Positions 1,506-40,947 are shown, numbered from the stretch's first letter. The stretch: DNA of 42,963 bases from an uncultured Candidatus Saccharibacteria bacterium (GCA_964468315.1 CAYXTA010000005.1:1-42963); one strand, 5' to 3'. Translations and numbers: made by a program. The notes: a model not told the origin generated them from the sequence alone.

Positions 1506-2072
1506 TTAGTATTTACGTATGACTGCCTTCACGACTGCTGTGATCTGTAAATCATGTTTCGGGATTATCGGTTTAAAATTTTTATTGGCTGGTTCGAGCC
1601 AAACTTTGTCACCATTCTTTTTAAAATATTTCATAGTGAATTCTCCATCGACATGTGCGATGACAATATCACCATCTTTTGCTTTGTCAGTGCGTTCAAC
1701 GAGGACCATATCACCGTCTTTGATATGTGCGTCAATCATTGAGTCACCATCGACTTCAAGCATGTATGTATTTTCTTTTTTCTGTATTAAAAAATCTTCT
1801 ATGTTTACTGTATCAGTTAGTTCTGCTTCTACATCAGAAGGAAAACCAGCTTTCACAGAACCAAGAAGAGGTATCTCATCAAATGATGCATTTGGTATCA
1901 ATCTACCAAGATGATCTTTTGCTACTACGCCAGCTTCAAGCATCTTCTCCACAACGCGTGCTACAGCATTCTTTGATTTGAAAGAGAAGAGCTTCATCAT
2001 CTCTGTGTATGTAGGCATTCTCTTGTTTGAAGAATAGAACGAAGTTAATTTATTTTTGTAATCGTTTTGCAT
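1506..2072 (-). CDS. lexA: LexA repressor (wHTH + S24 peptidase)
   Basis: N-terminal PTYTEM..LF..KS..AV HTH, Ala-Gly cleavage site (GSVKAGFP), catalytic Ser (GDSM) and Lys (FTMK). Confidence 0.9.
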   Translation of the reverse strand: MQNDYKNKLTSFYSSNKRMPTYTEMMKLFSFKSKNAVARVVEKMLEAGVVAKDHLGRLIPNASFDEIPLLGSVKAGFPSDVEAELTDTVNIEDFLIQKKENTYMLEVDGDSMIDAHIKDGDMVLVERTDKAKDGDIVIAHVDGEFTMKYFKKNGDKVWLEPANKNFKPIIPKHDLQITAVVKAVIRKY

Positions 2073-2080
2073 TTTTAAAA

Positions 2081-2278
2081 TTAAGCGTGTGAGAAACTAA
2101 AAGAAAATAATTTTGACCAAAAACTCTTTGGGCTAAACTGTCGTGCTTTGCGAAGGAGGAGTTTGTGTTCTCGTGCTTCTCTGAAGTATGCTTCACCTTT
2201 TAATATTTTAACATCTATTTTTTTATTTATCGCCTGGATTTCTTTTTCTACTATCTTTAAACATTGTTCTCTTGTCAT
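2081..2278 (-). CDS. Small hypothetical protein, first gene of the lexA operon
   Basis: 65-aa ORF between the SOS-box promoter and lexA, 8 nt from the lexA start. Confidence 0.65.
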   Translation of the reverse strand: MTREQCLKIVEKEIQAINKKIDVKILKGEAYFREAREHKLLLRKARQFSPKSFWSKLFSFSFSHA

Positions 2279-2326
2279 ATTTTTATAAAAAATTATTTTT
2301 TTAATTACCTACGTTCGACTGTATTT

Positions 2327-2355
2327 AGTATAAGTGAACGTTCGTTCACAGTCAA
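2327..2355 (-). promoter_or_regulatory. Promoter of the lexA operon with a LexA (GAAC-N4-GTTC) box in its spacer
   Basis: Minus strand TTGACT-17 nt-TATACT. GTGAAC-gttc-GTTCAC (2334-2349) fills 16 of the 17 spacer nt. A degenerate second site TTAC-N4-GTTC lies at 2305-2316. Confidence 0.85.
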
Positions 2356-2395
2356 CACAAATCTGTGGATAACTATTAAAAACAACTTATTTAAA

Positions 2396-10758: not shown

Positions 10759-11022
10759 TTAAAGGAAAACTTCCAGCGCGCCTTCCCCGCCGTCTTGGAT
10801 CTTTGACTGGTTGTAATGCACTCCGCGAGCATTCAAATAATTCCGTACAAAGCTTGGTAATACGGGACCATTCTCACTATTCTTGCCTTTACCAGTGATT
10901 ATACGCACATGTTTATATTTCATTTCCTTAAACAACGCATTCAAAATATCCTCCGCCTCATGCATCGTGTGCCCATGTAGATCAATCTCCACCTCCGCCT
11001 TTTGTTCGTATTTGTTTGGCAT
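10759..11022 (-). CDS. Stand-alone Smr/MutS2 domain protein
   Basis: IDLHG, IITGKGKNS, GGEGALEV. Confidence 0.9.
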   Translation of the reverse strand: MPNKYEQKAEVEIDLHGHTMHEAEDILNALFKEMKYKHVRIITGKGKNSENGPVLPSFVRNYLNARGVHYNQSKIQDGGEGALEVFL

Positions 11023-11023
11023 T

Positions 11024-11803
11024 TTAATTAATTAATTTTATTTTTTCTATTTTTGGATAGAGTGGTTTGTTATTAAAAGTAACTTTGTAAGAAGAGTGCC
11101 TATGTATTCCTTCTAGTGAGTTAATATACGCAAAGTACTTTAAAGTGAATTTACTTTCACTTTTTGAATATAACTCGAAGCAAACTTTCCACTCGTTATC
11201 AGCTTTATTTTCATATTTAAAAATTCTGATAATTTCCTTTTGTCCTTTTGCTTGAAACATTGTAATGCCACCTCCTTTTACATTAGTACGTGCGACTTTT
11301 CCTTTATTAAAACCAAAGTCAGTTTTCTTAATACCTTTTGCTGCTTTTTTAGCTCCTTTATCAACATTATTTAAAATTTCACTTTCTTTTCCTTTATGCC
11401 ATCTAACTTCTAGAGCAGCTGAGACTTTTTGTCGTGCAGATAAAAATTCATTCCAAAGATCAGAATTATCTACTGGTCTACCGTCTCTATTTTTCCATTT
11501 ATCTTTTTTCCAATAATTTGCCCTTTGTTGATTATCATAAACATACTGAGAATCTGTTATAATAAGAATATGATTTATTCTAATACGCTCGACTTCTTTA
11601 CGAGCAAATTTAAAAGCTTCAATACAAGCTTTTAGTTCCATTCTATTGTTTGTTGTTTCTCCGTATGCACCACTACACACTTCATAACTTTCAATATCAA
11701 AAGAATCAGGATATTCAGCAAAAACAGAATAGCCGCCTTCGTGGCCTGGGTTTCGATAAGCAGAACCATCAACATATAATTTTAAAGCATGTGGTTCATT
11801 CAT
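11024..11803 (-). CDS. Ribonuclease HI family protein with a C-terminal extension
   Basis: YVDGS, TNNRMEL, ITDSQYV, N.DLW, WHKG, N..VDK; about 100 extra residues at the C-terminus. Confidence 0.85.
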   Translation of the reverse strand: MNEPHALKLYVDGSAYRNPGHEGGYSVFAEYPDSFDIESYEVCSGAYGETTNNRMELKACIEAFKFARKEVERIRINHILIITDSQYVYDNQQRANYWKKDKWKNRDGRPVDNSDLWNEFLSARQKVSAALEVRWHKGKESEILNNVDKGAKKAAKGIKKTDFGFNKGKVARTNVKGGGITMFQAKGQKEIIRIFKYENKADNEWKVCFELYSKSESKFTLKYFAYINSLEGIHRHSSYKVTFNNKPLYPKIEKIKLIN

Positions 11804-11814
11804 AATTTGGTAAT

Positions 11815-12588
11815 CTATTTTTCCGCTCTTTTTTGAGCATTTTTAAATCTATCAAGACTCATTAGTTCATTTTTTAAACGATGGTTTTCTATTTCAAGTT
11901 CTTTTAAACGAGGAATGAAGTCATCTGTAAATTTTATTACCCCAAGATTTTGATTCACTCCATAAAATAAATCCATTAGACCCATAGCGATATTACCGAT
12001 CTGCCAAAGGTCTGTTTTCACAAGATACTCATCTTCAATATCAAAAAATGGAGTAACAAATTTCCAATTTTCATCATCAAGTCTAAAGTTATTGTGTGCA
12101 TAAATTATATTAGAGTGAGCAGTAGATTTATTTATTTCACTTTTCATATTTTTTATGGCATCTGACCCTTTTTTAAAATTATCTTCCAACCACTTATATC
12201 TTTTATTTGTAAGTTCTTGTGAAGAATTGATAATTCCATTTTCGTCAACACCAGCAAAACCACTTTGGTTTGGATTAGAAATTGCATATGCGGCACAGGA
12301 TCCCGCCTCAAGTTCTTGACGTAAATCCATCATTGCTTGAATGTGATGCAATCTAAGAGTAGAAAAAATTGCAAGAGTATTGTGCTTTTTTATCTGTGCC
12401 ATGAACATTGCAAAAATAAAACACTCAGGATCTATAGATTTAATAAATTCTCCAAGTAAATTATTAAATTCAACTGCATTTTTAAAATAAGATCCGTAGC
12501 GTTCTTCGCCAAATAAAATCATTTGTTTTTCACTTTCTAGAATATCTTCGACTGTTTCTTGTTTAAATTCCATTATTTTATTCTTCAT
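11815..12588 (-). CDS. Hypothetical protein, HEPN-like (DUF5677-like)
   Basis: All-helical character with LRQELE and KSTAHSN motifs; family assignment is inference. Confidence 0.5.
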   Translation of the reverse strand: MKNKIMEFKQETVEDILESEKQMILFGEERYGSYFKNAVEFNNLLGEFIKSIDPECFIFAMFMAQIKKHNTLAIFSTLRLHHIQAMMDLRQELEAGSCAAYAISNPNQSGFAGVDENGIINSSQELTNKRYKWLEDNFKKGSDAIKNMKSEINKSTAHSNIIYAHNNFRLDDENWKFVTPFFDIEDEYLVKTDLWQIGNIAMGLMDLFYGVNQNLGVIKFTDDFIPRLKELEIENHRLKNELMSLDRFKNAQKRAEK

Positions 12589-14608
12589 CTATTAATTTAA
12601 TGGTTTCTTGCACTATACCCTGCACACTATCCCCTTCTTCCGGAATTATAGGTTGATGGTTTTTGTTTGTACTTTTTGGTAACAAAATTCTTCGTCCGTC
12701 TTTTTTATCATAAAATTTAATCGTAACATTTTCACCACCAAGCAAAGCTACTACTCGATCTCCTGTTTCCCCTTTTTCAGCATAACGACATAAAACTAAA
12801 TCTCCATCATTAATACCTGCAAGATTCATAGAATCACCACTCGCTCGTACTATAAAGTATTGAACACCTGCTCTGATCTTGCTTTTCTCAACTGGTATCA
12901 TTTCTTCAATATTACTTTCTCCTAAAAGTGGCTCTCCGCAAGGAGCAGAACCAACCAAAGGGATACTAACCATTTCAACTGTATAAGGAGAAATAATTTT
13001 TTCTTTCTTAATTATTTCTTTAATAGGACTTATATTTCCTATTTTATCTTTAAAATACTTTCTTAAATTTTCATCACAGATATAAATATATGTCCCTTTT
13101 ATTCCACGAGTAAGCAAAGTTTTATAAATATTTATTACATATCTTTCAAGCTCATTTGGGTCTGTTATACCATTACGTCCATTAGTATCAAAATATTTTT
13201 CTTTATCTACTTTAAGTTTTTTATTTTCAATATCATATGAAAATTCTGGACCAATAATTACTCCAACATAATTCAAGTCATAACCTTGAACAGTATGAAT
13301 ACAGCCAACTTCATTTATTGCATTTGGAGAATTAACCCAATCCTGAGCTGTTGAATTCCAAATCAATTTTAAACCATTTATTTCAATATCATGTTTTTGT
13401 GTAGATCTACTTCCTGGTTTTGTATGCCAAGGCCAAGCATAACCAGCTACAACACGAGCAAGTTTATGTTTTTTATCTTTTTCTTTTATATCAGAAACCA
13501 TTTTATCTGCATTATCATAGATTTTAAAATCGTAATTTCCAAAATTATTTTGTTTTGGTGTTTTTAAGTCAAAAATATCTTCAATAAATTTTATGTACTC
13601 TCCTCCTGCTTCCACACGCATTTGTGAACTTAATTCGTATTTTTTAGTAGTTAACTTTCTAAAATCTTCTGGTCTCACATCTGCTGGTTTTATACTTTGA
13701 TTTTCATCATAAAAAAATATTTGGTGTTTTGAAGATTTCATAATCCAATCAAGCTGATTTCCGCTATTATCTAAACCTAATTTTTTATTTACTTGATCAA
13801 AAGAACCATAACCCATAATTCCCTTTCTTCTTTGTAATCTATGAGATTCGTCCACGATCAGTAAGTCGTATTGTTCTTTTACAACATCATTTGGTCCAAT
13901 AACCATGCTTGACTTTAAACCTTTTATTTTTGAAAAAACTTTACCAATAGTTCGACGAAGTGAAGACATAGGCACAACAAGTCCTATTTTCATATTCTTT
14001 GTTTCATCTTGTTCTTTTAAATACTTAAAAAGATAAGTCGCTAAAATCGTTTTACCTGTTCCTGGTTTCCCATTCACAACAAAAGTATTAAATTCATTTT
14101 TCTTTATATCTTTAAAAATCTGCTTAGCAATAAAATATTGATCTTCTGTAAGAGATTTATAAGGTGAATATTTAAATAAGTCACTATTTTTAAGATCTGC
14201 AAGAGTATTTTTAGCTAAACCCATTTCTCTTAAATTATCCCATGCAACTTCAAATTTTGTTTTATATTTAACTTTATCGTAGTAATTATGATTTTTTAAA
14301 CCACCAGTTAAATTTTGTAGTACATACTGACCATCAGCCTGAATATGCTGAATTAACCAAGATTCAATATCAAAAGCGGCAGAAATATTAAATTCTTCAT
14401 CTGTAATAATATGAATATCTTTCAATTTTCTTCTTTCTGGATTTTCAAAATGTTGTTTACTTCTATAATATGCATTTACAGTTTGACCTATATAAATTTC
14501 TTTTTTATCTTCAATAATATATACAACAGGCCAATTGTGACCAAATTTATATTCTTTTATTTGACTAAAATCTTCTTTGTTAAAAGGGAAAGTTTTTATT
14601 TCAGACAT
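12578..14608 (-). CDS. GIY-YIG nuclease + DUF2075 (Schlafen group 3-like SF1 helicase) + LexA-type S24 peptidase fusion
   Basis: VY..YIGQT..R..H; GKPGTGKT; IVDESHRL; QMR; HTVQGYDL; LLTRG; C-terminal VGSAPCGEP, GDSM, VTIK. Confidence 0.88.
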   Translation of the reverse strand: MSEIKTFPFNKEDFSQIKEYKFGHNWPVVYIIEDKKEIYIGQTVNAYYRSKQHFENPERRKLKDIHIITDEEFNISAAFDIESWLIQHIQADGQYVLQNLTGGLKNHNYYDKVKYKTKFEVAWDNLREMGLAKNTLADLKNSDLFKYSPYKSLTEDQYFIAKQIFKDIKKNEFNTFVVNGKPGTGKTILATYLFKYLKEQDETKNMKIGLVVPMSSLRRTIGKVFSKIKGLKSSMVIGPNDVVKEQYDLLIVDESHRLQRRKGIMGYGSFDQVNKKLGLDNSGNQLDWIMKSSKHQIFFYDENQSIKPADVRPEDFRKLTTKKYELSSQMRVEAGGEYIKFIEDIFDLKTPKQNNFGNYDFKIYDNADKMVSDIKEKDKKHKLARVVAGYAWPWHTKPGSRSTQKHDIEINGLKLIWNSTAQDWVNSPNAINEVGCIHTVQGYDLNYVGVIIGPEFSYDIENKKLKVDKEKYFDTNGRNGITDPNELERYVINIYKTLLTRGIKGTYIYICDENLRKYFKDKIGNISPIKEIIKKEKIISPYTVEMVSIPLVGSAPCGEPLLGESNIEEMIPVEKSKIRAGVQYFIVRASGDSMNLAGINDGDLVLCRYAEKGETGDRVVALLGGENVTIKFYDKKDGRRILLPKSTNKNHQPIIPEEGDSVQGIVQETIKLIDEE

Positions 14609-14610: not shown

Positions 14611-14958
14611 TTATAATTCTGTATATTTAGTATGTTTTCCTTTAGCTTTTTTTATAGGATATTTTTTACCATTTTTTTGCATTTTTAACATAAAAGCTTT
14701 TTCAATATCAACATCTAAATCATGAGAAAGTAATAAAACCCAGTAAAAAACATCCGCTAATTCTTCAGCAATATCTTTTTTATTTTCTTTTATATATTTT
14801 TTAATTTCTTCAGGAGATTTCCATTGAAAATGTTCAAGTACTTCACTAGCTTCGAGAGATAAAGAAATAGCTAAGTCTTTAGGATTGTGAAATTGCCTCC
14901 AATCACGAGCATCTCGGAAATCATTAATTACTTTAGTTAGAGCCTTAATTTGATTCAT
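14611..14958 (-). CDS. MazG-like nucleotide pyrophosphohydrolase (DCTPP1/RS21-C6 type)
   Basis: RDWRQFHNPKDLAISLSLEASEVLEHFQW, EELADV. Confidence 0.9.
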   Translation of the reverse strand: MNQIKALTKVINDFRDARDWRQFHNPKDLAISLSLEASEVLEHFQWKSPEEIKKYIKENKKDIAEELADVFYWVLLLSHDLDVDIEKAFMLKMQKNGKKYPIKKAKGKHTKYTEL

Positions 14959-15037
14959 AACCCCTAAATTCTACCTTATTTTAAAGCATTTTTCAATATT
15001 AAAATAACCTCAAATACTATTTTCACAAATAATTGAC

Positions 15038-15072: not shown

Positions 15073-15124
15073 ACAAAGTGCCGAAAGGCTCCGAGAAAGC
15101 CCCCGTAAGGGGGCTTTCGATTTT
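15073..15124 (+). ncRNA. Candidate ~50-nt small RNA convergent on the MazF-like gene
   Basis: GCC-GAAA-GGC hairpin, then GAAAGCCCCC-GTAA-GGGGGCTTTC followed by gatttt; no ORF. Ends are estimated. Confidence 0.45.
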
Positions 15125-15517
15125 CTAAAGGAATTTCTTTAATTTCTCTTTTATTTCCTTTAACTGCTCGTCTGGTAATTCATATAACTTTCTTTTTAAT
15201 CTTTTAACACTGAGTAATTTTAATTGAGCCAAAATAGCTGAAACTTTATTATTATCTAAATCAGTAAAATTATAATAAAAGTCAAAATCTTTTTGTTTCG
15301 TAGATAATGGAACAATCCAAAACATATGATTGTTAAATTTCTTAATAATTAATATTGGGCGAGAAAAATTTTCACCACTACCATTTTGTTCATAACCAAT
15401 ATTTTTTCCTAAACTGCTCATCCACACTTCACCTTCTTTAGGAAAACGATCAGGTTTATTCTCTTCGAAATCAATTTTCTTTTTTAATTCATTCCAATTA
15501 TTAAAATCTGTTTCCAT
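15125..15517 (-). CDS. PemK/MazF-like toxin, no adjacent antitoxin gene
   Basis: GEVWM..LG.NIGYEQ, RPILIIKK, IVPLST. Confidence 0.8.
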   Translation of the reverse strand: METDFNNWNELKKKIDFEENKPDRFPKEGEVWMSSLGKNIGYEQNGSGENFSRPILIIKKFNNHMFWIVPLSTKQKDFDFYYNFTDLDNNKVSAILAQLKLLSVKRLKRKLYELPDEQLKEIKEKLKKFL

Positions 15518-15551
15518 ACTTAAATTTTAAAACATTTTATAAATAAATCAA

Positions 15552-16076
15552 TTATATCTTCCTACTATCATACGCCCAATGGAGGAGGGCTTGGCGTTGG
15601 CGAGGACGGCAAAAAATGTCCCCTACTCGGCAGTTTTTCTTTATTTGTGCAGTGTGTCGCAAGATCATGCGCCAGCGTTTTATTTGTCTTTTGTCTTCAT
15701 CTGGGATTCTACGCCCCATGTAATATCGGCAATACCATTGGAACCATCCTCTAGGATCTTCGGAATAAATCCATCCATTTTTCTTCCAGACAGAAAGTGG
15801 TTGGCTCGCATCCACACCGAAATAATTTAATTTCTTATCATGTTTGTCTTTCGCAAATTTTGCTTTTGTAAACCAATCTTTCGGAAATTCTTTTTTGCAA
15901 TCGCGCATGTAGCGTCCGCCGAAGACGCCCAAGGAAAGCATTTCCTTGGGCGTCAGGTCTGGTTTGAATTCTATATCAAAATTTTTACCCACAGGTTCAG
16001 TCAAAAAGTATGTATACTTTTTCTGCATCTTATCATTCACTATTACTTTTTTCTTTTTGAAAGGCATTTTATTCAC
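15552..16076 (-). CDS. Conserved hypothetical protein (DPRGWFQWYCRYY.GRR family)
   Basis: LTPKEML.LGVFGG.Y, W...GW....DPRGWFQWYCRYYMGRR, RQALLHWAYD. Confidence 0.75.
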   Translation of the reverse strand: MNKMPFKKKKVIVNDKMQKKYTYFLTEPVGKNFDIEFKPDLTPKEMLSLGVFGGRYMRDCKKEFPKDWFTKAKFAKDKHDKKLNYFGVDASQPLSVWKKNGWIYSEDPRGWFQWYCRYYMGRRIPDEDKRQIKRWRMILRHTAQIKKNCRVGDIFCRPRQRQALLHWAYDSRKI

Positions 16077-16327
16077 CCCGTTAGATAATTTTTAAGTCGA
16101 CTTTTAATATATCGTTTACCCCATGCTGTTTTTAAATATTTTTCTCTATGTGTAGCATCTTGTTGATTCAAACAAGCTTCGTAATATACTAATTCCATTG
16201 GTAAACGATTTTTAGTGGAAAAAACTTTTCCACTATTATGTTCTTTAAGTCGACTTTTTAAGTCTTTAGTATAACCAGTATAGAACAATTTATCTTTTTT
16301 ACTTTTTAGTATGTAAGTATAATACAT
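16073..16327 (-). CDS. GIY-YIG nuclease (UPF0213/YazA-like)
   Basis: YTYIL...YTGYT.DL..RLKEHNSG, A..REKYLK. Confidence 0.9.
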   Translation of the reverse strand: MYYTYILKSKKDKLFYTGYTKDLKSRLKEHNSGKVFSTKNRLPMELVYYEACLNQQDATHREKYLKTAWGKRYIKSRLKNYLTG

Positions 16328-18617: not shown

Positions 18618-19997
18618 TTATTTAGTATTTTTCTCTTTCCATTCTCCACCTAATGCGAGGATGAAATTTTTGTGCATTTTACTCAATTCTTTTTTAGAAA
18701 GTTCACAAAAAGTTTTCTCTGCTGTTTCAGATTCTTTCCTGAAAATTTTATCTTGTTCTAAAATAAATGGATGTACTTTGAGTGCTTGATGATTTATTCC
18801 TAAAAGATAAACTCCGGAAAGTCTTCGCACACGAGAAAGCGCTACATAGCCTTGCCCGTATTCAAATACACCAGATAAATCCATAACAGCTGCATCCATA
18901 CTCATACCCTGGCTTTTGTGTATAGTCACAGCCCAAGCGAGACGAAGAGGTATTTGTGTTATCTGTGCTTTTATTTTTCCATTTTCTTCTACAACCCAAT
19001 CCATAGGTGTGATCTGTATCGTCTTTCCATTACGAGTTCTGATAATAGGATTTCCAGTATATTCATCGAATTCTTCTACGACACCGAGAGTTCCATTTAC
19101 AAAATGTTCTTTTGGATTATTTTTTGTACACATAACGACAGCACCTCTTTTCAAAAGCAATGTCTCAGGAGAAAGACAACCTTTCTTGAGCATCGTAATA
19201 AGTGCTTCGTTACCTTCGCTATCCATAAGGAAAGGAATTTCTTCTTCATCTTCTATTTTCGAAAGCATTTCTTCATTCACTTTATCGACATTCAAATTGT
19301 GTGAATAAAGTTTTGTAGTATTTTCTGGAATTTCAGTTTTTTCAATAAATCTTTCTTTCATGTATTCATAATGTTCTTCTTCGACACTATCACTACGAAT
19401 AGCAGAAAGTAATTCAAGAAAAGCTTTATCGTCTTGGCGATGTTGTTCACTGATATAACAAACAACAGGTTTCAATCTTTTCCATGCATTTGATTCATAA
19501 GCAAAGTGCGCCTTTTTTTCTGCTATCAGTGCACTTTGCTTTTCGATAGTTTCTTTTTTAAAAATAGGCGGAAGCTGAAAAAAATCTCCGACAAGAATAA
19601 CTTGTATACCACCAAATGGTTCAGAGTTTTGTTTTATCTCTCTACAAACTGCGTCCACCATGTCGAGCGTGTCAGCACGAAGCATAGATATTTCATCGAT
19701 GATAAGTACATGTGTTTTTCTTACTCGACGACTGACGTATTCACTACTCGCTATTTTATCCAAATCATATGGAGTCAAAGTATCTTTAATACCGATAGCA
19801 CTCCAAGAATGTATCGTCATACCTCCTATGTGTGTAGCTGCAATTCCAGTACTCGCTGTTATGGCTGGCTCTATACCATTCTCACGAAGATATGAAACGA
19901 AACTATTTATAGTATATGTCTTTCCTGCGCCGGGTTCTCCAGTAAGGAAAACACTTGCGCCAGTCTTGAGTATTGAAAGTGCTTCATTTTGAGTCAT
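18618..19997 (-). CDS. PIF1-family (SF1B) DNA helicase
   Basis: GEPGAGKT, IIDEISML, GDFFQLPP, QIPLRLAWAVTIHKSQGMS, YVALSR. Confidence 0.93.
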   Translation of the reverse strand: MTQNEALSILKTGASVFLTGEPGAGKTYTINSFVSYLRENGIEPAITASTGIAATHIGGMTIHSWSAIGIKDTLTPYDLDKIASSEYVSRRVRKTHVLIIDEISMLRADTLDMVDAVCREIKQNSEPFGGIQVILVGDFFQLPPIFKKETIEKQSALIAEKKAHFAYESNAWKRLKPVVCYISEQHRQDDKAFLELLSAIRSDSVEEEHYEYMKERFIEKTEIPENTTKLYSHNLNVDKVNEEMLSKIEDEEEIPFLMDSEGNEALITMLKKGCLSPETLLLKRGAVVMCTKNNPKEHFVNGTLGVVEEFDEYTGNPIIRTRNGKTIQITPMDWVVEENGKIKAQITQIPLRLAWAVTIHKSQGMSMDAAVMDLSGVFEYGQGYVALSRVRRLSGVYLLGINHQALKVHPFILEQDKIFRKESETAEKTFCELSKKELSKMHKNFILALGGEWKEKNTK

Positions 19998-30996: not shown

Positions 30997-33900
30997 TTAT
31001 AAATAGTTTAATATCTTTTTACTAATGGGTTTTGTACAATTAAGCAAATTAATTTTGCTACGAGTATATTGAGCTACTATTCCTGTTGTTTTTTTACCAT
31101 TAAATGGAGAAATGATATCTTTAAAATATTTTTGCTGAAAACGTTTTACTGCTTCAAAATCTTTTTTTTCATAAATACCATTCACAGCCAGCTTTTCTCC
31201 CTGAGAATCATTTAAAAAAGTTTCAAGTTTTTTAACATCATTAATATTATTTATCTTACCTAAAACGATACTTTTTTTTGTAGAAAAAATATTTGTACAA
31301 AGTGAAACATCTTGAATTTTTTCTACTGCAATTTCTTTTGCTTGAACAGGATAATAAGGACGCGACTTTCCATAAGAAGAACGATGAGAAGCTCCTGAAA
31401 CAGTTATTGGGGTTGTAATTGTAAAAGTTGTCACGCTTAAAAGATTACTTGTATTAGTAGCAGTATCAGTAACAATGATAGTACAATCACTATAAATTCC
31501 ATCAACGAGTGTATTAAAACTTATTGTATTATTTCCCACACTTGCTGAGGTTGTAACTGAAGAACAAGAACCTCCGTATGTTATAGTTCCTGCTTCATCT
31601 GTAGAAAAAACATAATCCGGTGTATGGTCCGTCGTTAGATTTGTAACAGGTGTAATTTCAGAAAGTGTTGGACTAGTAGTATCAACAACAAAAGTAGTAA
31701 CACTAAGTGGAGTACTTGCATTAAGTGCAGTATCAGTAACAGTAACAGTACAATTATTGTACGTTCCATCCGACAATGTATTAAACGTAATTGTATTACT
31801 ACCTACTGAAGCTGATGTTGTAGCTGAAGAACAAGAACCTCCATATGAAATATTTCCTGCTTCGTCTGTAGTAAATGTATAGTTTGGAGTACTATCATTT
31901 GTTGGAGTTGAGACTGGAGTAACTTCAGAAATAATTGGTGCAGTAATATCTGGTGCATAGGTTACAGTATTGTCCGTAGATGTCGCAGCAGTATTGTTGT
32001 TATTAGAAGGATCAGTTACTTTGTTTGCATCAAGAGAGGCAATAATAGTACCGCCTGACGTTGCAGTAACTGGGACAGTCCATGTAATATTATCTGAAGT
32101 TGTAGGAGTTCCCACTGTGGCAGTGCCTGTACCAGAAATTGTAATATCACCAGCTATAAATGTTGTTGGATCAATTGCTTCGCTAAATACTACAGTGAAA
32201 TTAATTGGGTTTGAGCCTGTTGGATCAGACTGTCCTACAGCTTGGTTGATAGTAGCAGTAGGCGCAGTTGTATCAGGTAAAGACACATCATAAATAGTTA
32301 TTCTATTATTATTTGTCACAAATAATTTAGTATTTGTAACATCATATGCCAAAGGTCCTGGTCCATTCATCCCCGCTTGTGTAACTGCTCCCGTACTTCC
32401 CGTAAAAGTCGTCTGTCCTAAGACATTTATTGCATTTTCTCCATCAGTGATGGAAGCGACGTCGTAGACGGTGACGCGGTTACTTGTTGATTGGGAAACA
32501 AACAATCTATTATTAGTAGCATCATAGACAATGTCTTGAGGAATATTCATTCCTCCTTGTGTAGTAGCTCCCGTACTTCCCGTAAAAGTCGTCTGTCCTA
32601 AGACATTTATTGCATTTTCTCCATCAGTGATGGAAGCGACGTCGTAGACGGTGACGCGGTTGGCGGAAGTTGCTTGGGCGACGAAAAGTCGGCTGTTGGT
32701 AGAATCATATGCAAGACCTTTTGGATTATTCATCCCCGCTTGTGTAACTGCTCCAGTACTTCCTGTAAAAGTTGTCTGTCCCAAGACATTGATTGCATTC
32801 TCTCCATCAGTGATGGAGGCGACGTCGTAGACGGTGACGCGGTTACTATTGGAAACAAAAAGTCGACTATTGGTGGAATCATAAGCAAGTGCTTGTGGGC
32901 TACTCATCCCCGATTGTGTTACGGCTGCACCACTTGCAGTAAAAGTATTCTGTCCCAAGACATTGATTGCATTTTCTCCATCAGTGATGGAGGCGACGTC
33001 GTAGACAGTGACACGGTTAGCTGCTGTTTGAGCAACAAAGAGTCTATTGTTTACAGAATCATATGCAAGACCGAAAATAGAACTTACGCCTGCTTGAGTT
33101 ACTGCTCCAGTATTTGAATTAAAATCTGTTTGACCTAAAACATTGTCAGGTGTCTTGTCTACAAGCTGATTGCTTGAATTAAGATTATAAACAAGAACGC
33201 GATTATTAGTAGAATCATTCACAAATAAACGGTGATTCGTAGAATCAATAATATTATTACCAACACCTGCACCACTCAGGCCGAGTAAACTCGGTGCATT
33301 ATTTGTCGCTGATTTTGTGTAATTTACTGTCGAGCCTGATAGATCGGAATATTGACCAATCAAATCTACCGCATTTTCTCCATCAGTGATGGAGGCGACG
33401 TCGTAGACGGTGACGCGGTGCGCTCCTGTTTGTGAAACAAATAAAAGACCATTTATATTGTCGTAAAGTAAACCAGTTGGTGTACTCATACCTCCCTGTG
33501 TCACCGCTGCAGTACTTCCCGTAAAAGTCGTCTGTCCTAAAACATTGATTGCATTCTCTCCATCAGTTATGGAAGCGACGTCGTAGACGGTGACACGATG
33601 ATTTCCTGACTGAGCAACAAAGAGTCTGTCATTAGTTGAATCATATGCAAGACCAGTAGGACTTTTCACTCCTGCCTGCGTTGTGGCTGCTGTATTTACC
33701 GTAAACGTCGTCTGTCCTAAAACATTGATTGCATTCTCTCCATCAGTTATGGAAGCGACGTCGTAGACGGTGACGCGGTTACCATTTGCAACAAATAACC
33801 TACTGTTAGCATTATCATATGCCATACCTTGTGGACCACCAGTAGCCATTCCTCCCTGCGTAACCGCTGCACTAGATCCCGTAAAAGTCGTCTGTCCTAA

Positions 33901-34614
33901 AACATTGATTGCATTTTCTCCATCAGTAATAGAGGCGACGTCGTAGACGGTGATGCGGTTTGAAGAAGATTGCGAAACAAAGAGTCTATTGTTTGTGGAG
34001 TCAAAAGCAAGACCGAAAATATTACCCATGCCTGCTTGAGTAACTGCTGAAGTAGATGTTGTAAACGTCGTCTGTCCCAAGACATTGATTGCATTCTCTC
34101 CATCAGTGATGGAGGCGACGTCGTAGACGGTGACGCGTCGAGCATTTGTATTTGCAACAAAAAGTCTATTGCCATTAGGATCATAAACAAGACTGGAAGG
34201 ACTAGACATACCTGCTTGAGTTATTGCTCCTGTAGTTGTAGAAAAAGTTGTTTGCCCTAAAACATTATCGGCTACTTTATCAACCAACTGATCACTTGAG
34301 TTTAAATTGTAAACAAGAACACGATTATTCGCAGAATCAGATACAAACAATCTGTGATGCACATGATCAATATCAGTACTAAAATTACCAGAGCCACTGA
34401 ATCCAAGTAAGTTTGGAGAATTATTTGAGCCTGACTTTGTATAAATTACGGTTGAACCTGCGGTGTCAGTATATTGTCCAATTAAGTCTGAAGCATTTTC
34501 TCCATCAGAAATTGCAGCAGACGTAGTTTGAGTAAAAGTAAAAAAAGCAACTACTAGAAAAGAATAGATAAGAAATGCCGATTTTTTATTTTTTTTATAA
34601 AAAAGTTTTTTCAT
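30997..34614 (-). CDS. Large surface protein: NHL repeats, Ig-like domains, C-terminal peptidoglycan-binding-like domain
   Basis: About 60-aa NHL-type repeats (GLAYD..N.RLFV....NRVTVYD), DTTAP Ig modules, AVKRFQ..Y...TG.V...TR tail. Likely start MKKLF at 34614. Confidence 0.85.
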   Translation of the reverse strand: MKKLFYKKNKKSAFLIYSFLVVAFFTFTQTTSAAISDGENASDLIGQYTDTAGSTVIYTKSGSNNSPNLLGFSGSGNFSTDIDHVHHRLFVSDSANNRVLVYNLNSSDQLVDKVADNVLGQTTFSTTTGAITQAGMSSPSSLVYDPNGNRLFVANTNARRVTVYDVASITDGENAINVLGQTTFTTSTSAVTQAGMGNIFGLAFDSTNNRLFVSQSSSNRITVYDVASITDGENAINVLGQTTFTGSSAAVTQGGMATGGPQGMAYDNANSRLFVANGNRVTVYDVASITDGENAINVLGQTTFTVNTAATTQAGVKSPTGLAYDSTNDRLFVAQSGNHRVTVYDVASITDGENAINVLGQTTFTGSTAAVTQGGMSTPTGLLYDNINGLLFVSQTGAHRVTVYDVASITDGENAVDLIGQYSDLSGSTVNYTKSATNNAPSLLGLSGAGVGNNIIDSTNHRLFVNDSTNNRVLVYNLNSSNQLVDKTPDNVLGQTDFNSNTGAVTQAGVSSIFGLAYDSVNNRLFVAQTAANRVTVYDVASITDGENAINVLGQNTFTASGAAVTQSGMSSPQALAYDSTNSRLFVSNSNRVTVYDVASITDGENAINVLGQTTFTGSTGAVTQAGMNNPKGLAYDSTNSRLFVAQATSANRVTVYDVASITDGENAINVLGQTTFTGSTGATTQGGMNIPQDIVYDATNNRLFVSQSTSNRVTVYDVASITDGENAINVLGQTTFTGSTGAVTQAGMNGPGPLAYDVTNTKLFVTNNNRITIYDVSLPDTTAPTATINQAVGQSDPTGSNPINFTVVFSEAIDPTTFIAGDITISGTGTATVGTPTTSDNITWTVPVTATSGGTIIASLDANKVTDPSNNNNTAATSTDNTVTYAPDITAPIISEVTPVSTPTNDSTPNYTFTTDEAGNISYGGSCSSATTSASVGSNTITFNTLSDGTYNNCTVTVTDTALNASTPLSVTTFVVDTTSPTLSEITPVTNLTTDHTPDYVFSTDEAGTITYGGSCSSVTTSASVGNNTISFNTLVDGIYSDCTIIVTDTATNTSNLLSVTTFTITTPITVSGASHRSSYGKSRPYYPVQAKEIAVEKIQDVSLCTNIFSTKKSIVLGKINNINDVKKLETFLNDSQGEKLAVNGIYEKKDFEAVKRFQQKYFKDIISPFNGKKTTGIVAQYTRSKINLLNCTKPISKKILNYL
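32387..34140. repeat. Intragenic coding repeats of about 180 bp (9 core copies)
   Basis: Core CCATCAGT(G/T/A)AT(G/A)GA(A/G)GCGACGTCGTAGAC(G/A)GTGA at 32441, 32621, 32804, 32978, 33380, 33560, 33740, 33920, 34100. Confidence 0.92.
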
Positions 34615-34663
34615 ATTAACGACGAATATTAATACATTATAACACAATAAACAGTACAAAAAA

Positions 34664-34689
34664 AACACCCTTACAATTGTAAGGGTGTT
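34664..34689 (-). terminator. Perfect 26-bp palindrome, likely a terminator
   Basis: AACACCCTTACAATTGTAAGGGTGTT, followed by a T-run on the minus strand. Confidence 0.75.
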
Positions 34690-35617: not shown

Positions 35618-35691
35618 TGCCAGATCGTCTAATGGTAGGACACCTCCCTCTGGAGGAGGTTATCTTGGTTCGAGTCCAAGTCTGGCAGCCA
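35618..35691 (+). tRNA. tRNA-Gln (anticodon CTG), CCA encoded
   Basis: Acceptor TGCCAGA/TCTGGCA, D-arm GTC..GAC, anticodon stem CCTCC/GGAGG with loop CTCTGGA, T-arm CTTGG-TTCGAGT-CCAAG. Confidence 0.96.
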
Positions 35692-37191: not shown

Positions 37192-37193
37192 AA

Positions 37194-38366: not shown

Positions 38367-38368
38367 AA

Positions 38369-39220: not shown

Positions 39221-39240
39221 AATTTTAATTTATATAATAA

Positions 39241-39420
39241 TTATTTTGTACTTACTTTTTTAAGAAAAGTATTAAACTCTACTTTATCAATCCTAAAATC
39301 ACGACCGATTTTGTGTGCTTTCAAACGACCTGCTTTTATGTAGCGGTAAATGGTCATAATGTTTACCTCTAGTAATTCAGCTAAGTCTTCTGCTTTATAA
39401 AACTCTTTTTCTTTAATCAT
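39241..39420 (-). CDS. Excisionase-like helix-turn-helix protein, 59 aa (absent from the ORF track)
   Basis: MIKEKEFYKAEDLAELLEVNIMTIYRYIKAGRLKAHKIGRDFRIDK. Confidence 0.88.
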   Translation of the reverse strand: MIKEKEFYKAEDLAELLEVNIMTIYRYIKAGRLKAHKIGRDFRIDKVEFNTFLKKVSTK

Positions 39421-39443
39421 AAATGTTTTGTATTTACCTAATA

Positions 39444-39472
39444 ATTATACTTTACTCCGCTTTACATAGCAA
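39444..39472 (-). promoter_or_regulatory. Promoter for the HTH-REase-MTase-recombinase run
   Basis: Minus strand TTGCTA-17 nt-TATAAT. Confidence 0.65.
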
Positions 39473-40894: not shown

Positions 40895-40899
40895 AGAAA

Positions 40900-40923
40900 A
40901 CCCCGAAGGGTTATCTTCAGGGT
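40900..40923 (-). terminator. Hairpin between the 422-aa gene and the Rep operon
   Basis: Minus strand ACCCUGAAG-auaacc-CUUCGGGGU then UUUCU; an alternative AACCC-UUCG-GGGUU stem overlaps it. Confidence 0.5.
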
Positions 40924-40947
40924 ATTAGATACGGTACTTAAGTTTGC

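What the first reader, a model, noticed from the sequence alone, without database searches (positions are those of the whole stretch)
12578..14608. Nuclease-helicase fused to an intact LexA self-cleavage domain: a possible RecA-triggered switch
The last ~130 aa (12578-12973) are a complete S24 domain with a Cys-Gly scissile-type loop (GSAPCGEP), Ser (GDSM) and Lys (VTIK), but no DNA-binding HTH. In LexA, UmuD and cI this domain dimerises and self-cleaves on RecA-ssDNA filaments. Fused to a GIY-YIG/SF1 helicase, it could switch nuclease activity post-translationally when ssDNA accumulates during phage replication or DNA damage. The switch role is inference. This is the strongest candidate for a novel mechanism in the window.
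Basis: partly seen in the sequence, partly recalled or inferred. Interest (0 to 1): 0.82.

Follow-up and report, generated by a model that had tools for sequence, protein, structure and literature searches.

The report
Nuclease-helicase with LexA-type self-cleaving tail
A 676-residue DNA-cutting, DNA-unwinding enzyme ends in an apparently intact LexA-type self-cleaving domain and always travels with a small nucleotide-hydrolysing partner gene, which suggests an unstudied, probably mobile module whose activity is switched by the cell's DNA-damage signal (RecA on single-stranded DNA).

Summary
ORF 12578-14608 (-) encodes GIY-YIG nuclease + SF1B/DUF2075 (Schlafen-type) helicase + a disordered linker + a complete Peptidase_S24 domain with no HTH. 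Cys557-Gly558, Ser593 and Lys631 align exactly with LexA Ala84-Gly85, Ser119 and Lys156, and are invariant in 120 close homologues. It is not an assembly artefact: the fusion recurs in more than 120 protein clusters, and in Bacteroidota and Gammaproteobacteria including cultured Pseudomonas.

New points:
- The gene is the second gene of a conserved two-gene cassette, behind a DCTPP1-like MazG pyrophosphohydrolase (14611-14958). The pairing is seen in about 73 of 87 loci across phyla.
- Most relatives lack S24 and end at the helicase core. S24 is an add-on, acquired at least twice from different S24 lineages.
- The cassette has lower GC than its flanks in 48 of 55 loci, with variable neighbours, so it looks mobile.
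- The same window encodes a canonical LexA with an SOS box, but the cassette has no such box.

Best reading: a mobile nuclease-helicase/dNTPase module, probably anti-phage, in which RecA*-stimulated self-cleavage removes a dimerising tail and yields the form that S24-less relatives have constitutively. Cleavage, its trigger and its direction are all inferred. I found no description of it in the searchable literature.

The parts
14611..14958 (-). MazG-like (DCTPP1-like) nucleoside-triphosphate pyrophosphohydrolase, 115 aa. It is the first gene of the cassette; its stop codon lies 2 nt before the ATG of the helicase gene.
   Evidence: Pfam MazG-like PF12643, 66.9 bits against a cutoff of 27. The nearest solved structures are 4qgp pyrophosphatase (1.3e-20) and mammalian dCTP pyrophosphatase 1/RS21-C6 (3e-17). 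It sits adjacent to the helicase gene in about 73 of 87 loci. Its E-x-x-E and E-E-x-x-D motifs are conserved in 76 partners.
12578..14608 (-). Whole ORF, 676 aa: GIY-YIG nuclease, SF1B/DUF2075 helicase, linker and S24 autoprotease.
14189..14608 (-). N-terminal GIY-YIG nuclease domain with a helical extension (aa 1-140).
   Evidence: Pfam GIY-YIG 22.1 bits here, and above threshold in relatives (P0129 31.3 bits, P0256 36.2 bits). Y30, Y39, G41, R49, E82 and N99 are invariant and H53 is nearly so. PADLOC PDC-S14 matches aa 2-139.
13037..14188 (-). SF1B helicase of the DUF2075/Schlafen group III type (aa 141-524). Walker A is GKPGTGKT at 180-187; Walker B is DESHR at 253-257.
   Evidence: Pfam PF09848, 241.9 bits. 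Foldseek matches RecD2, RecD, SLFN11, SLFN14, Upf1, nsp13 and Dda. Motifs are invariant.
12974..13036 (-). Flexible, poorly conserved linker (aa 525-545).
   Evidence: pLDDT is below 50 for residues 525-542. Mean column conservation is 0.475, against 0.80-0.85 in the domains. S24-less relatives end here.
12578..12973 (-). Peptidase S24 (LexA/UmuD-type) domain, aa 546-676, plus the stop codon.
   Evidence: Pfam 69.4 bits. LexA structures score 1e-10 to 1e-11. TM 0.80-0.83 to LexA C-terminal domains.
12935..12940 (-). Codons of the predicted scissile bond Cys557-Gly558.
   Evidence: They align to LexA Ala84-Gly85. Cys is 120/120 and Gly 119/120 in close homologues. Translation checked.
12830..12832 (-). 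Codon of the predicted nucleophile Ser593 (in GDSM).
   Evidence: Aligns to LexA Ser119. Conserved 120/120 and 45/45. Translation checked.
12716..12718 (-). Codon of the predicted general base Lys631 (in VTIK).
   Evidence: Aligns to LexA Lys156. Conserved 120/120 and 44/45. Translation checked.
14968..14996 (-). Best promoter-like site of the cassette (TTGAAA-17-TAGAAT), lying downstream of a GC-rich hairpin at 15095-15118.
   Evidence: sequence. This is a consensus match only. Upstream regions are not conserved between loci.
11815..12588 (-). Downstream ORF of 257 aa that overlaps the end of the S24 gene by 11 nt. It is probably co-transcribed but is not a conserved part of the cassette.
   Evidence: No Pfam, NCBIfam or PADLOC hit. 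No homologue in any other fetched locus.
1506..2072 (-). Canonical LexA repressor of the host, 188 aa. This is context: it shows that an SOS-type RecA/LexA axis exists in this organism.
   Evidence: TIGR00498 lexA equivalog, 139.2 bits against a cutoff of 110.95, covering model positions 15-201 of 203. It aligns with LexA structures over both domains. It is 35% identical to the fused S24 domain.
2336..2347 (.). The only perfect GAAC-N4-GTTC (Cheo-type LexA box) in the window. It lies inside a TTGACT...TACTAA promoter upstream of a small ORF and lexA.
   Evidence: No such box lies upstream of the MazG-helicase cassette.

Best explanation
The feature is the second gene of a horizontally mobile two-gene cassette. 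The first gene encodes a DCTPP1-like MazG dNTP pyrophosphohydrolase. The second encodes a GIY-YIG nuclease fused to an SF1B (DUF2075/Schlafen-type) helicase. In this lineage the enzyme has gained a C-terminal LexA-type S24 autoprotease domain on a flexible tether of about 20 residues.

Proposed mechanism:
1. The full-length protein is a latent or restrained form, held as a dimer through its S24 domains, as LexA and UmuD are.
2. RecA-ssDNA filaments accumulate, either on phage replication or recombination intermediates or on damaged host DNA.
3. The S24 domain docks in the filament groove, and RecA Phe203 enters the conserved hydrophobic pocket.
4. The Cys557-Gly558 loop closes onto Ser593/Lys631 and the bond is cut.
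5. This releases a 557-residue nuclease-helicase that is essentially the form S24-less relatives have constitutively. It then unwinds and cuts the offending DNA.
6. Meanwhile the MazG partner hydrolyses (possibly modified) dCTP-type nucleotides.

The most likely biological role is defence against phages or other mobile DNA, of the nuclease-helicase kind (Nhi, Hna, Hachiman).

Shown by the data: the domain anatomy, intact catalytic and cleavage residues, the conserved operon, the accessory and repeatedly acquired nature of S24, and the presence of LexA in the host.

Inferred: self-cleavage, RecA* as the trigger, activation rather than inactivation, the defence role, and the MazG substrate.

The confidence of 0.4 is for the whole chain. 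Taken separately, I put 'the S24 domain self-cleaves' at about 0.75, 'RecA* is the trigger' at about 0.6 and 'the role is defence' at about 0.5.
For: - Anatomy and residues.
- Structure: an S24 fold on a disordered tether and an SF1B helicase.
- Purifying selection on Ser, Lys and [A/C]-Gly in 43-45 of 45 S24-bearing members from CPR, Bacteroidota and Gammaproteobacteria.
- The RecA-Phe203 pocket residues of LexA (V79, V82, F111, L113, V146, V153; Cory et al., bioRxiv 10.1101/2023.10.30.564768) correspond to V552, A555, F585, V587, V620 and V628. F585 is kept in 44 of 45 members.
- S24 was acquired independently. The window-type S24 scores 49-52 bits against the E. coli LexA C-terminal domain and 74 bits against the host LexA. 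It scores only 5-17 bits against the S24 of the Bacteroidota/Proteobacteria fusions, which form their own group.
- S24 presence is scattered on the core-domain tree, and a Saccharibacteria relative 70% identical over residues 1-519 lacks it.
- S24-less relatives end a median of 4 aa after the helicase core, so the cleaved product mimics them.
- The host has a canonical LexA and an SOS box, but the cassette has no such box, which argues for post-translational rather than transcriptional control.
- The MazG partner is adjacent in about 73 of 87 loci, including Pseudomonas putida (1-nt overlap) and Bacillus plasmids. It is DCTPP1-like with conserved metal-binding motifs.
- Signs of mobility and accessory character: GC is lower than the flanks in 48 of 55 loci. 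Flanking genes differ in every locus. Identity is 70-90% between proteins named from Pacebacteria, Nomurabacteria and Roizmanbacteria. In Bacillus the neighbours include a zeta toxin, an HNH endonuclease and ImmA/IrrE.
- Remote PADLOC hits to Nhi, AbiO and the defence candidates PDC-S14 and PDC-S41.
- Nuclease-helicase defences are known to respond to ssDNA-protein complexes or DNA damage (PMC10732053; bioRxiv 10.1101/776245).
Against: - No experiment bears on this protein: cleavage, the RecA dependence of cleavage and any phenotype are all untested.
- RecA itself is not in the 43-kb window. Its presence is inferred from the presence of LexA.
- The pocket residues are also part of the hydrophobic core of the fold, so their conservation is weak evidence for RecA binding.
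- The direction of the switch is not determined. In LexA, cleavage inactivates the protein, and the new C-terminus ending in Ala-Ala (seen in many relatives) resembles the LexA ClpXP degron.
- No PADLOC 2.0 model covers the family at full length, and the MazG partner hits nothing in PADLOC.
- Only 13 relatives were found on viral contigs.
- The window neighbourhood is rich in DNA-repair-type genes (Atl-like, small GIY-YIG, Smr, RNase H, Pif1, LexA). This fits a genome-maintenance role as well as a defence role.
- The AlphaFold model gives no confident placement of S24 relative to the enzyme (pTM 0.68; the linker is disordered). There is therefore no structural evidence for autoinhibition.
Confidence: 0.4

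Rival explanations
1. The anatomy is the same but the sign is opposite: the S24 domain is a safety off-switch. The full-length, S24-dimerised enzyme is the active form. When RecA* signals that the host's own DNA is damaged or undergoing recombinational repair, self-cleavage monomerises the enzyme and exposes a degron. The nuclease-helicase is thereby removed, just as LexA is inactivated.
For: - LexA, the closest relative of this S24 domain, is inactivated by cleavage.
- GIY-YIG nucleases have one active site, so dimerisation through S24 could be what allows double-strand cutting (established knowledge about the family; not tested here).
- Many relatives would end in ...Ala-Ala after cleavage, like the LexA N-terminal fragment that ClpXP recognises (my own knowledge; not tested here).
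Against: - S24-less relatives are the majority and end at the helicase core. The core enzyme therefore presumably functions without S24-mediated dimerisation.
- The window protein would end in ...Ala-Pro-Cys, which is not an obvious degron.
Confidence: 0.22
2. The cassette is a genome-maintenance module of the SOS network rather than a defence system. The MazG-like enzyme would sanitise the dNTP pool. The GIY-YIG helicase would process stalled forks or excise lesions. The S24 domain would couple its activity or its recruitment to RecA filaments, by analogy with UmuD/UmuD' and with SLFN11 at RPA-coated ssDNA.
For: - DCTPP1-type enzymes are house-cleaning pyrophosphatases.
- GIY-YIG is the UvrC/Cho/Slx1 nuclease fold (established knowledge).
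- The window neighbourhood holds Atl-like, small GIY-YIG, Smr, RNase H, Pif1-like helicase, MsrA/MsrB and LexA genes.
- L004 has DNA_alkylation, RmuC and NUDIX genes nearby.
- In Pseudomonas the cassette sits among metabolic genes, not in a defence island.
Against: - The distribution is patchy and the flanks differ in every locus.
- GC is lower than the flanks in 48 of 55 loci.
- Identity is very high across CPR classes.
- The family occurs on Bacillus megaplasmids beside toxin, HNH and ImmA genes.
- These features are typical of accessory, horizontally moving genes rather than core repair functions.
Confidence: 0.25
3. The S24 domain serves only as a permanent dimerisation or RecA-filament-docking module, and self-cleavage plays no regulatory role.
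For: - S24 C-terminal domains are dimerisation domains in LexA, UmuD and cI (established knowledge).
- Two of 45 members have lost the [A/C]-Gly site or the Lys (P0155, L068), so the fusion can persist without catalysis.
Against: - Ser is kept in 45 of 45 members, Lys in 44 of 45 and [A/C]-Gly in 43 of 45, across lineages only 35-50% identical overall.
- The residues are invariant in 120 close homologues.
- Such conservation is not expected if catalysis were dispensable.
Confidence: 0.08
4. The fusion is an assembly or gene-calling artefact that joins a helicase gene to a separate LexA-like gene.
For: None found.
Against: - The same uninterrupted architecture is seen in more than 120 clusters from independent NCBI, JGI, ENA and Logan assemblies.
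- It is also seen in isolate genomes of Pseudomonas, Pedobacter, Chitinophaga, Marinobacter, Alcanivorax and Nitrincola.
- There is no HTH and no start codon context between the domains.
Confidence: 0.01

Closest known systems
LexA repressor (Peptidase S24; E. coli LexA, PDB 1jhh/7b5g/8trg)
   Same: - The C-terminal domain has the same fold (TM about 0.8).
- The Ser-Lys dyad and the scissile loop align residue for residue.
- The RecA-Phe203 pocket is hydrophobic and largely identical.
- The window-type S24 is closer to LexA than to any other S24 group tested.
   Different: - There is no winged-helix DNA-binding domain.
- The piece released by cleavage would be a 557-residue nuclease-helicase, not a repressor domain.
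- The protein scores below the LexA equivalog cutoff (69 against 110.95 bits).
- The real LexA of this organism is a separate gene at 1506-2072.
UmuD to UmuD' (polymerase V accessory subunit)
   Same: - It has a Cys-Gly scissile bond like UmuD.
- UmuD sets the precedent for S24 cleavage that activates rather than inactivates, and for an S24 protein that regulates an enzyme rather than a promoter.
   Different: - UmuD is a stand-alone 139-residue protein that works with UmuC. Here S24 is covalently fused to the enzyme it would regulate, and no umuC is adjacent.
- The NCBIfam UmuD model scores 51.5 bits against a cutoff of 110.
Nhi (SERP2475, Staphylococcus epidermidis) and the 'Nhi-like' protein of Millman et al. 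2022
   Same: - It is a single polypeptide with an N-terminal nuclease and a DUF2075 helicase.
- Nhi is an experimentally shown anti-phage enzyme linked to phage ssDNA-binding protein and replication intermediates (bioRxiv 10.1101/776245; bioRxiv 10.1101/2022.05.11.491447).
   Different: - The Nhi nuclease is PD-(D/E)xK, whereas here it is GIY-YIG.
- The PADLOC Nhi model matches only part of the helicase (65 bits, model positions 173-436 of 470).
- Nhi has no S24 domain and no MazG partner.
Schlafen group III proteins (human SLFN11, SLFN14, SLFN5)
   Same: - They share the same Pfam helicase family (PF09848) and a similar helicase fold.
- SLFN11 is recruited to ssDNA coated by RPA at stressed forks (my own knowledge). 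This is conceptually parallel to sensing RecA-coated ssDNA.
   Different: - There is no N-terminal Schlafen (AlbA_2-type) RNase core.
- The nuclease here is GIY-YIG.
- The sensor would be a self-cleaving S24 domain.
Nuclease-helicase defence systems that sense DNA damage or ssDNA-protein complexes (Hachiman HamAB, AbpAB, Hna)
   Same: They follow the same logic: a helicase plus a nuclease, activated by aberrant DNA or ssDNA-protein intermediates (PMC12278908 abstract; PMC10732053).
   Different: - The protein families are unrelated.
- Activation of AbpAB was shown to be independent of RecA and LexA. Here a RecA-responsive domain is built into the enzyme.
dCTP pyrophosphatase 1 (DCTPP1/RS21-C6) and MazG-like house-cleaning enzymes (for the partner gene)
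   Same: It is an all-alpha MazG-like fold family. E-values to DCTPP1 structures are 3e-17, and the acidic metal-binding motifs are conserved.
   Different: It is a 115-residue bacterial protein translationally coupled to a nuclease-helicase gene. Its substrate is unknown.

Membership tests
Peptidase S24 autoproteases (LexA/UmuD/cI) | Profile and fold of the S24 catalytic domain | tested here: met
   Pfam PF00717, 69.4 bits against a cutoff of 23.3. Foldseek TM 0.80-0.83 and rmsd 2.5-2.8 A to LexA C-terminal domains.
Peptidase S24 autoproteases (LexA/UmuD/cI) | Ser-Lys catalytic dyad | tested here: met
   Ser593 aligns to LexA Ser119 and Lys631 to Lys156. Both are invariant in 120 homologues. 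Across all S24-bearing relatives, Ser is 45/45 and Lys 44/45.
Peptidase S24 autoproteases (LexA/UmuD/cI) | Ala/Cys-Gly scissile bond in the loop preceding the catalytic core | tested here: met
   Cys557-Gly558 aligns to LexA Ala84-Gly85. Cys is 120/120 and Gly 119/120. [A/C]-Gly is present in 43 of 45 members.
Peptidase S24 autoproteases (LexA/UmuD/cI) | Surface that accepts RecA Phe203 (LexA V79, V82, F111, L113, V146, V153) | tested here: inconclusive
   The equivalents are V552, A555, F585, V587, V620 and V628: 4 of 6 identical, all hydrophobic. These residues also belong to the fold's core, so they do not prove RecA binding.
Peptidase S24 autoproteases (LexA/UmuD/cI) | Demonstrated self-cleavage (alkaline pH or RecA/ssDNA/ATP) | not testable with these tools
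   This needs biochemistry.
LexA transcriptional repressor (TIGR00498) | N-terminal winged-helix DNA-binding domain and a score above the equivalog cutoff | tested here: not met
   Only model positions 79-196 of 203 match, at 69 bits against a cutoff of 110.95. The residues N-terminal of S24 are helicase. A separate true LexA lies at 1506-2072.
UmuD (NF007621) | Score above the family cutoff | tested here: not met
   51.5 bits against a cutoff of 110. Nothing among the annotated neighbours resembles UmuC, though I ran no dedicated search for umuC.
GIY-YIG nuclease superfamily | GIY...YIG motifs followed by conserved Arg, Glu and Asn | tested here: met
   VVY at 28-30, YIG at 39-41, and R49, H53, E82 and N99 are invariant or nearly so. 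Pfam is marginal for this protein (22.1 against 22.6 bits) but above cutoff in relatives.
DUF2075 / Schlafen group III helicase (PF09848), SF1B | Profile match, Walker A/B motifs and an SF1B fold | tested here: met
   241.9 bits. GKPGTGKT and DESHR are invariant. Foldseek matches RecD2, RecD, SLFN11, Upf1 and Dda.
Eukaryotic Schlafen proteins | N-terminal Schlafen core (AlbA_2-type) nuclease domain | tested here: not met
   No such Pfam hit. The N-terminus is GIY-YIG.
Nhi anti-phage nuclease-helicase | PD-(D/E)xK N-terminal nuclease plus a full-length match to the Nhi profile | tested here: not met
   The PADLOC Nhi model matches only helicase residues 142-475 (model positions 173-436 of 470; 65 bits). 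Nhi's nuclease is PD-(D/E)xK, whereas here it is GIY-YIG.
Nhi anti-phage nuclease-helicase | Protection against phage | not testable with these tools
   This needs plaque assays.
MazG-like / DCTPP1-type NTP pyrophosphohydrolase (partner gene 14611-14958) | Profile match and acidic metal-binding motifs | tested here: met
   PF12643, 66.9 bits against a cutoff of 27. DCTPP1 structures score 3e-17. E-x-x-E and E-E-x-x-D are conserved in 76 partners. The substrate is not testable here.

The most novel reading that the evidence does not exclude
RecA-ssDNA filaments directly activate an effector enzyme, without transcription, through a built-in LexA-type self-cleaving domain. On this reading the S24 module, known so far as the switch of repressors and of UmuD, has been recruited at least twice independently as a pro-enzyme lock on a Schlafen-type nuclease-helicase. 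That enzyme works together with a DCTPP1-like dNTPase as a widespread, so far undescribed two-gene immune (or fork-surveillance) system. It would be a bacterial counterpart of SLFN11 sensing RPA-coated ssDNA.
Probability: 0.35. Interest if true: 0.85.

Novelty: new variant of a known kind. Interest (0 to 1): 0.7.

Why it matters
Every well-studied S24 autoprotease I know of controls transcription (LexA, phage and ICE repressors) or a polymerase accessory factor (UmuD). If the proposal holds, this family would show the same RecA-sensing switch wired directly onto a DNA-degrading motor enzyme. That would give a fast route from 'ssDNA is accumulating' to nuclease action, without going through transcription.

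Three observations make a functional link likely and give clear hypotheses to test:
- The fusion arose more than once.
- It is kept with intact catalytic residues from CPR bacteria to Pseudomonas.
- It is always paired with a dCTPase-like enzyme.

The family also offers tractable hosts (Pseudomonas putida/bharatica, Pedobacter, Marinobacter) in which to study a bacterial Schlafen-type helicase. In addition, it would add a candidate defence system to CPR/Patescibacteria, whose immune repertoire is poorly known. Finally, the conserved MazG-helicase pairing is a new lead in itself for how dNTP-pool enzymes cooperate with nucleases.

Tried and rejected
- **Assembly artefact.** Rejected: more than 120 independent clusters and several isolate genomes carry the fusion.
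- **Membership in Nhi, AbiO or any PADLOC 2.0 system.** Only partial helicase hits were found. The MazG partner and the neighbours gave no hits.
- **The downstream overlapping 257-aa ORF as a third component.** Rejected: it has no homologue in any other locus.
- **Transcriptional SOS control of the cassette.** The only perfect GAAC-N4-GTTC box is at lexA (2336-2347). None lies upstream of the cassette, and upstream regions are not conserved between loci.
- **RecA in the window or in fetched loci.** None found, so RecA presence rests on the LexA gene and on general knowledge.
- **Phage or plasmid carriage of the S24 form.** No hit of 80% coverage or more in the phage or plasmid collections. Only S24-less relatives occur on Bacillus and Paenibacillus plasmids, and 13 relatives on IMG/VR contigs, one of them with S24.
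- **Alternative C-terminal sensor domains.** Essentially none. S24 is the only common C-terminal extension, and a single representative has an HTH_3 instead.
- **Literature.** Ten full-text searches (DUF2075+S24, DUF2075+GIY-YIG, MazG+DUF2075, Schlafen+LexA, MazG-like+defence, Peptidase_S24+defence+helicase, and others) found no description of this architecture or gene pair. Papers that use the newer Pfam name or sit in closed journals could have been missed.
- **Interdomain docking of S24 on the enzyme.** The AlphaFold model gives no confident placement because the linker is disordered, so it offers no evidence for or against autoinhibition.
- **Parsimony count of 23 S24 gains or losses.** It comes from a crude NJ tree and should be read only as 'several'.

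Full report

Yes. The window holds an uninterrupted ORF at 12578-14608 on the minus strand, 676 aa long.

Pfam finds three domains:
- SLFN-g3_helicase (formerly DUF2075) at residues 175-512, E 1.5e-71.
- Peptidase_S24 at residues 550-659, E 2.7e-19, 69.4 bits against a cutoff of 23.3.
- A marginal GIY-YIG match at residues 28-60, 22.1 bits against a cutoff of 22.6.

NCBIfam's LexA equivalog matches only its C-terminal half (model positions 79-196 of 203). It scores 69 bits, below the 110.95 cutoff, so there is no DNA-binding domain.

A HMMER alignment to E. coli LexA structures puts Cys557-Gly558 on the Ala84-Gly85 scissile bond, Ser593 on Ser119 and Lys631 on Lys156.

An AlphaFold2 model built on 64 sequences has mean pLDDT 85.7 and pTM 0.68. 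It shows a compact N-terminal alpha/beta domain, a two-lobed helicase, a disordered linker (residues 525-542) and a beta-rich C-terminal domain. The cleavage loop (556-559) has low confidence, as expected for a mobile LexA-type loop. Foldseek matches the helicase part to RecD2, RecD, SLFN11, SLFN14, Upf1, nsp13 and Dda. It matches the C-terminal domain to LexA C-terminal domains at TM 0.80-0.83 and rmsd 2.5-2.8 A.

**2. It is not an artefact, and the residues are under selection.**

A search of 5.8 billion protein clusters returned 6727 relatives. The best 120 are 69-100% identical over their full length, and all carry both PF09848 and PF00717. They come from independent NCBI, JGI, ENA and Logan assemblies, and the names given include Pacebacteria, Nomurabacteria, Roizmanbacteria and Paceibacterota.

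In these 120:
- Cys557, Ser593 and Lys631 are invariant, and Gly558 is 119/120.
- The GIY-YIG residues (Y30, Y39, G41, R49, E82, N99; H53 119/120) and the Walker A/B motifs are invariant or nearly so.
- Only the linker is poorly conserved, with mean column conservation 0.475 against 0.80-0.85 in the three domains.

**3. The real unit is a two-gene cassette.**

In every locus I examined, a gene for a MazG-like protein of 106-115 residues lies directly beside the helicase gene:
- In the window it is 14611-14958, and its stop codon is 2 nt before the helicase ATG.
- The same holds in three other CPR contigs.
- In Pseudomonas putida the two genes overlap by 1 nt.
- It also holds for an S24-less relative on Bacillus thuringiensis and B. 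cereus megaplasmids, where the neighbour is annotated 'nucleotide pyrophosphohydrolase'.

I scanned 80 loci from one genome per GTDB species with my own HMMs. A MazG-like ORF lay directly upstream on the same strand for 62 of 90 helicase ORFs, including 23 of 26 with S24. In 11 further Bacillota loci it lay directly downstream. Several of the remaining loci are cut by contig ends.

The partner's nearest solved relatives are an archaeal-type pyrophosphatase (4qgp, 1.3e-20) and mammalian dCTP pyrophosphatase 1/RS21-C6 (3e-17). Its acidic metal-binding motifs are conserved in 76 partners, so it is an enzyme, not a scaffold.

The 257-aa ORF that overlaps the 3' end of the helicase gene (11815-12588) has no homologue in any other locus. 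It is not part of the conserved unit.

**4. S24 is an accessory that was acquired repeatedly.**

An exhaustive HMMER scan of 1.84 billion representatives found 7871 relatives, 488 of them below 1e-30. Most are 520-600 aa long and lack S24. About 20 of the best 150 are 700-820 aa long. All twelve of these longer proteins that I scanned end in Peptidase_S24, including the window's own clade.

S24-less relatives end a median of 4 residues after the helicase core. Every C-terminal tail longer than 149 residues is an S24 domain. Only one representative carries something else, an HTH_3 domain.

S24-bearing members occur in several groups:
- CPR/Patescibacteria.
- Bacteroidota: Pedobacter, Chitinophaga, Marivirga and Flavobacteriales.
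- Gammaproteobacteria and Betaproteobacteria: Pseudomonas putida/bharatica, Marinobacter, Alcanivorax, Nitrincola and Candidimonas.

On a tree of the core domains they are scattered among S24-less relatives. A Saccharibacteria protein that is 70% identical to the window protein over residues 1-519 has no S24.

The S24 domains themselves fall into separate types:
- The window type scores 49-52 bits against the E. coli LexA C-terminal domain and 74 bits against the host's own LexA. It scores only 5-17 bits against the S24 domains of the Bacteroidota/Proteobacteria fusions.
- Those fusions form their own coherent group (40-158 bits among themselves) and carry an insertion that the window type lacks.
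- A third type is represented by P0121.

The same helicase family has therefore captured S24 domains at least twice. Across 45 S24-bearing members, Ser is kept in 45, Lys in 44 and an [Ala/Cys]-Gly dipeptide at the aligned loop in 43. Convergent fusion together with retained catalytic residues is the strongest computational argument that self-cleavage matters for this enzyme.

**5. Context in the host.**

The window is chromosomal, with the 5' part of a 16S rRNA gene at 1-395.

It also encodes a canonical LexA at 1506-2072. This scores 139.2 bits on TIGR00498 against a cutoff of 110.95, both domains are aligned, and it has its own Ala-Gly, Ser and Lys. LexA is preceded by a small ORF and a promoter that contains the only perfect GAAC-N4-GTTC box in the window, at 2336-2347. 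This organism therefore has an SOS-type circuit, which implies a RecA co-protease. RecA itself is not within the 43 kb.

The cassette has its own promoter-like site (TTGAAA-17-TAGAAT, 14968-14996) after a hairpin. It has no LexA box, and its upstream regions are not conserved between loci.

**6. Is the cassette mobile, and is it defence or repair?**

Evidence for an accessory, horizontally moving module:
- Flanking genes differ in every locus.
- The cassette's GC content is lower than its flanks in 48 of 55 loci, by 4.6 points on average. In the window it is 0.285 against 0.335.
- Proteins named from different CPR classes are 70-90% identical.
- In Bacillus plasmids the neighbours include a zeta toxin, an HNH endonuclease, another dNTP pyrophosphohydrolase and ImmA/IrrE.
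- In a Paenibacillus plasmid the upstream gene is a DUF3578 protein instead of MazG.
- Lutz et al. noted DUF2075 NTPases next to modification-dependent restriction enzymes (PMC6765204).

PADLOC gives only partial hits: Nhi at 65 bits, AbiO, and the defence candidates PDC-S14 on the GIY-YIG domain and PDC-S41 on the helicase C-terminus. It gives nothing for the MazG partner. Few relatives lie on viral contigs.

Evidence that fits a genome-maintenance role: the window neighbourhood holds several repair-type genes, namely Atl-like, small GIY-YIG, Smr, RNase H and a Pif1-like helicase.

I judge defence more likely than repair, but not by a wide margin. Because the partner is DCTPP1-like, a role against phages that use modified cytosines is an attractive guess. 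It remains speculative.

**7. Mechanism.**

What is shown by the data:
- The anatomy.
- Intact catalytic and cleavage residues.
- A flexible tether.
- The conserved partner gene.
- The accessory and convergent nature of S24.
- A LexA-based SOS system in the host.

What is inferred:
1. The S24 domains dimerise the enzyme, as in LexA and UmuD.
2. RecA-ssDNA filaments bind the S24 domain. In LexA, RecA Phe203 inserts into a pocket formed by V79, V82, F111, L113, V146 and V153 (Cory et al., bioRxiv 10.1101/2023.10.30.564768). Here those positions are V552, A555, F585, V587, V620 and V628.
3. Cleavage at Cys557-Gly558 then releases residues 1-557.

That product is nearly the same as the natural S24-less enzymes. 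The simplest reading is therefore that cleavage produces the active form, following UmuD-to-UmuD' logic.

The opposite sign follows LexA logic: inactivation by monomerisation, or by exposure of a degron. It cannot be excluded and is listed as the main rival. A reading in which S24 only dimerises or docks the enzyme is unlikely, given the conservation of Ser, Lys and the scissile dipeptide.

**8. Comparison with known systems, and novelty.**

The protein passes the sequence and fold tests for the S24 family, the GIY-YIG superfamily and the DUF2075/SF1B helicases.

It fails the membership tests for four families:
- LexA: no HTH, and below the equivalog cutoff.
- UmuD: below the cutoff.
- Nhi: a different nuclease, and only a partial profile match.
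- Eukaryotic Schlafens: no Schlafen core domain.

It works like a hybrid of a nuclease-helicase defence enzyme and an S24 switch. Ten full-text literature searches found no description of the DUF2075-S24 architecture or of the MazG-DUF2075 pair. Database annotators call the protein only 'DNA/RNA helicase domain-containing protein' or 'DUF2075 family protein/SOS-response transcriptional repressor LexA'.

I rate it a new variant of known kinds, not a new category, because both modules and the general logic are known and nothing has been tested. Interest is high for specialists in the SOS response and in phage defence: it would put an S24 switch on an effector enzyme, it evolved convergently, and tractable hosts are available.

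Noticed in passing
window 1506-2395 (-): A canonical lexA (1506-2072) is preceded by a small ORF of about 65 aa (about 2080-2276). A TTGACT...TACTAA promoter upstream contains a perfect Cheo-type SOS box, GAACGTTCGTTC, at 2336-2347. This is evidence for an autoregulated SOS circuit in a CPR-like genome.
   Followed up: partly
L008 1-1539 (-): In a low-GC MAG labelled Gammaproteobacteria, a stop-to-stop ORF contains a complete LexA (HTH + S24) that runs in frame, with no intervening stop or Met, into a C5 cytosine DNA methyltransferase (motifs DLFAGVGG...ENV). It may be a LexA-Dcm fusion. It lies about 2 kb from an S24-less MazG-helicase cassette.
   Followed up: no
protein P0255 (700 aa), residues 634-693: One family representative carries a Cro/C1-type HTH_3 domain at the C-terminus, in the position where others carry S24. 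That is the other half of a cI/LexA-like repressor.
   Followed up: no
protein P0168 (730 aa), residues 72-135: One family representative has an extra N-terminal HSDR_N (type I restriction R-subunit N-terminal) domain ahead of the GIY-YIG domain.
   Followed up: no
window 15125-16327 (-): A run of three tightly packed genes lies upstream of the cassette: a small stand-alone GIY-YIG protein (16073-16327), a 174-aa protein with no family hit (15552-16076, overlapping by 4 nt) and a PemK/MazF-like toxin (15125-15517). No recognisable antitoxin is present.
   Followed up: partly
window 10759-11803 (-): An RNase H domain protein (11024-11803, 259 aa) has a C-terminal extension of about 100 residues with no family hit. 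It is directly followed by a small Smr-domain protein (10759-11022).
   Followed up: no
window 18618-19997 (-): A Pif1/RecD-like SF1 helicase of 459 aa gives PADLOC hits to the defence candidate PDC-S68 (72 bits), the type IV CRISPR-associated RecD model and RecD_like.
   Followed up: no
window 35618-42216: A large serine recombinase (35629-37191) has a 3' end that overlaps a tRNA-Gln gene (35618-35691, opposite strand). It is followed by a D12 N6-adenine methyltransferase (37194-38366) and several ORFs with no family hits. This may be an integrated mobile element.
   Followed up: no
window 30997-34668 (-): A 1223-aa NHL/arylesterase-repeat protein lies in a stretch with clearly higher GC (0.43) than the rest of the window (about 0.33).
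   Followed up: no
L100 6600-9659 (Paenibacillus amylolyticus plasmid pY5S7-1): An S24-less family member has a DUF3578-domain gene directly upstream in place of the MazG-like gene, so the partner may be exchangeable.
   Followed up: no
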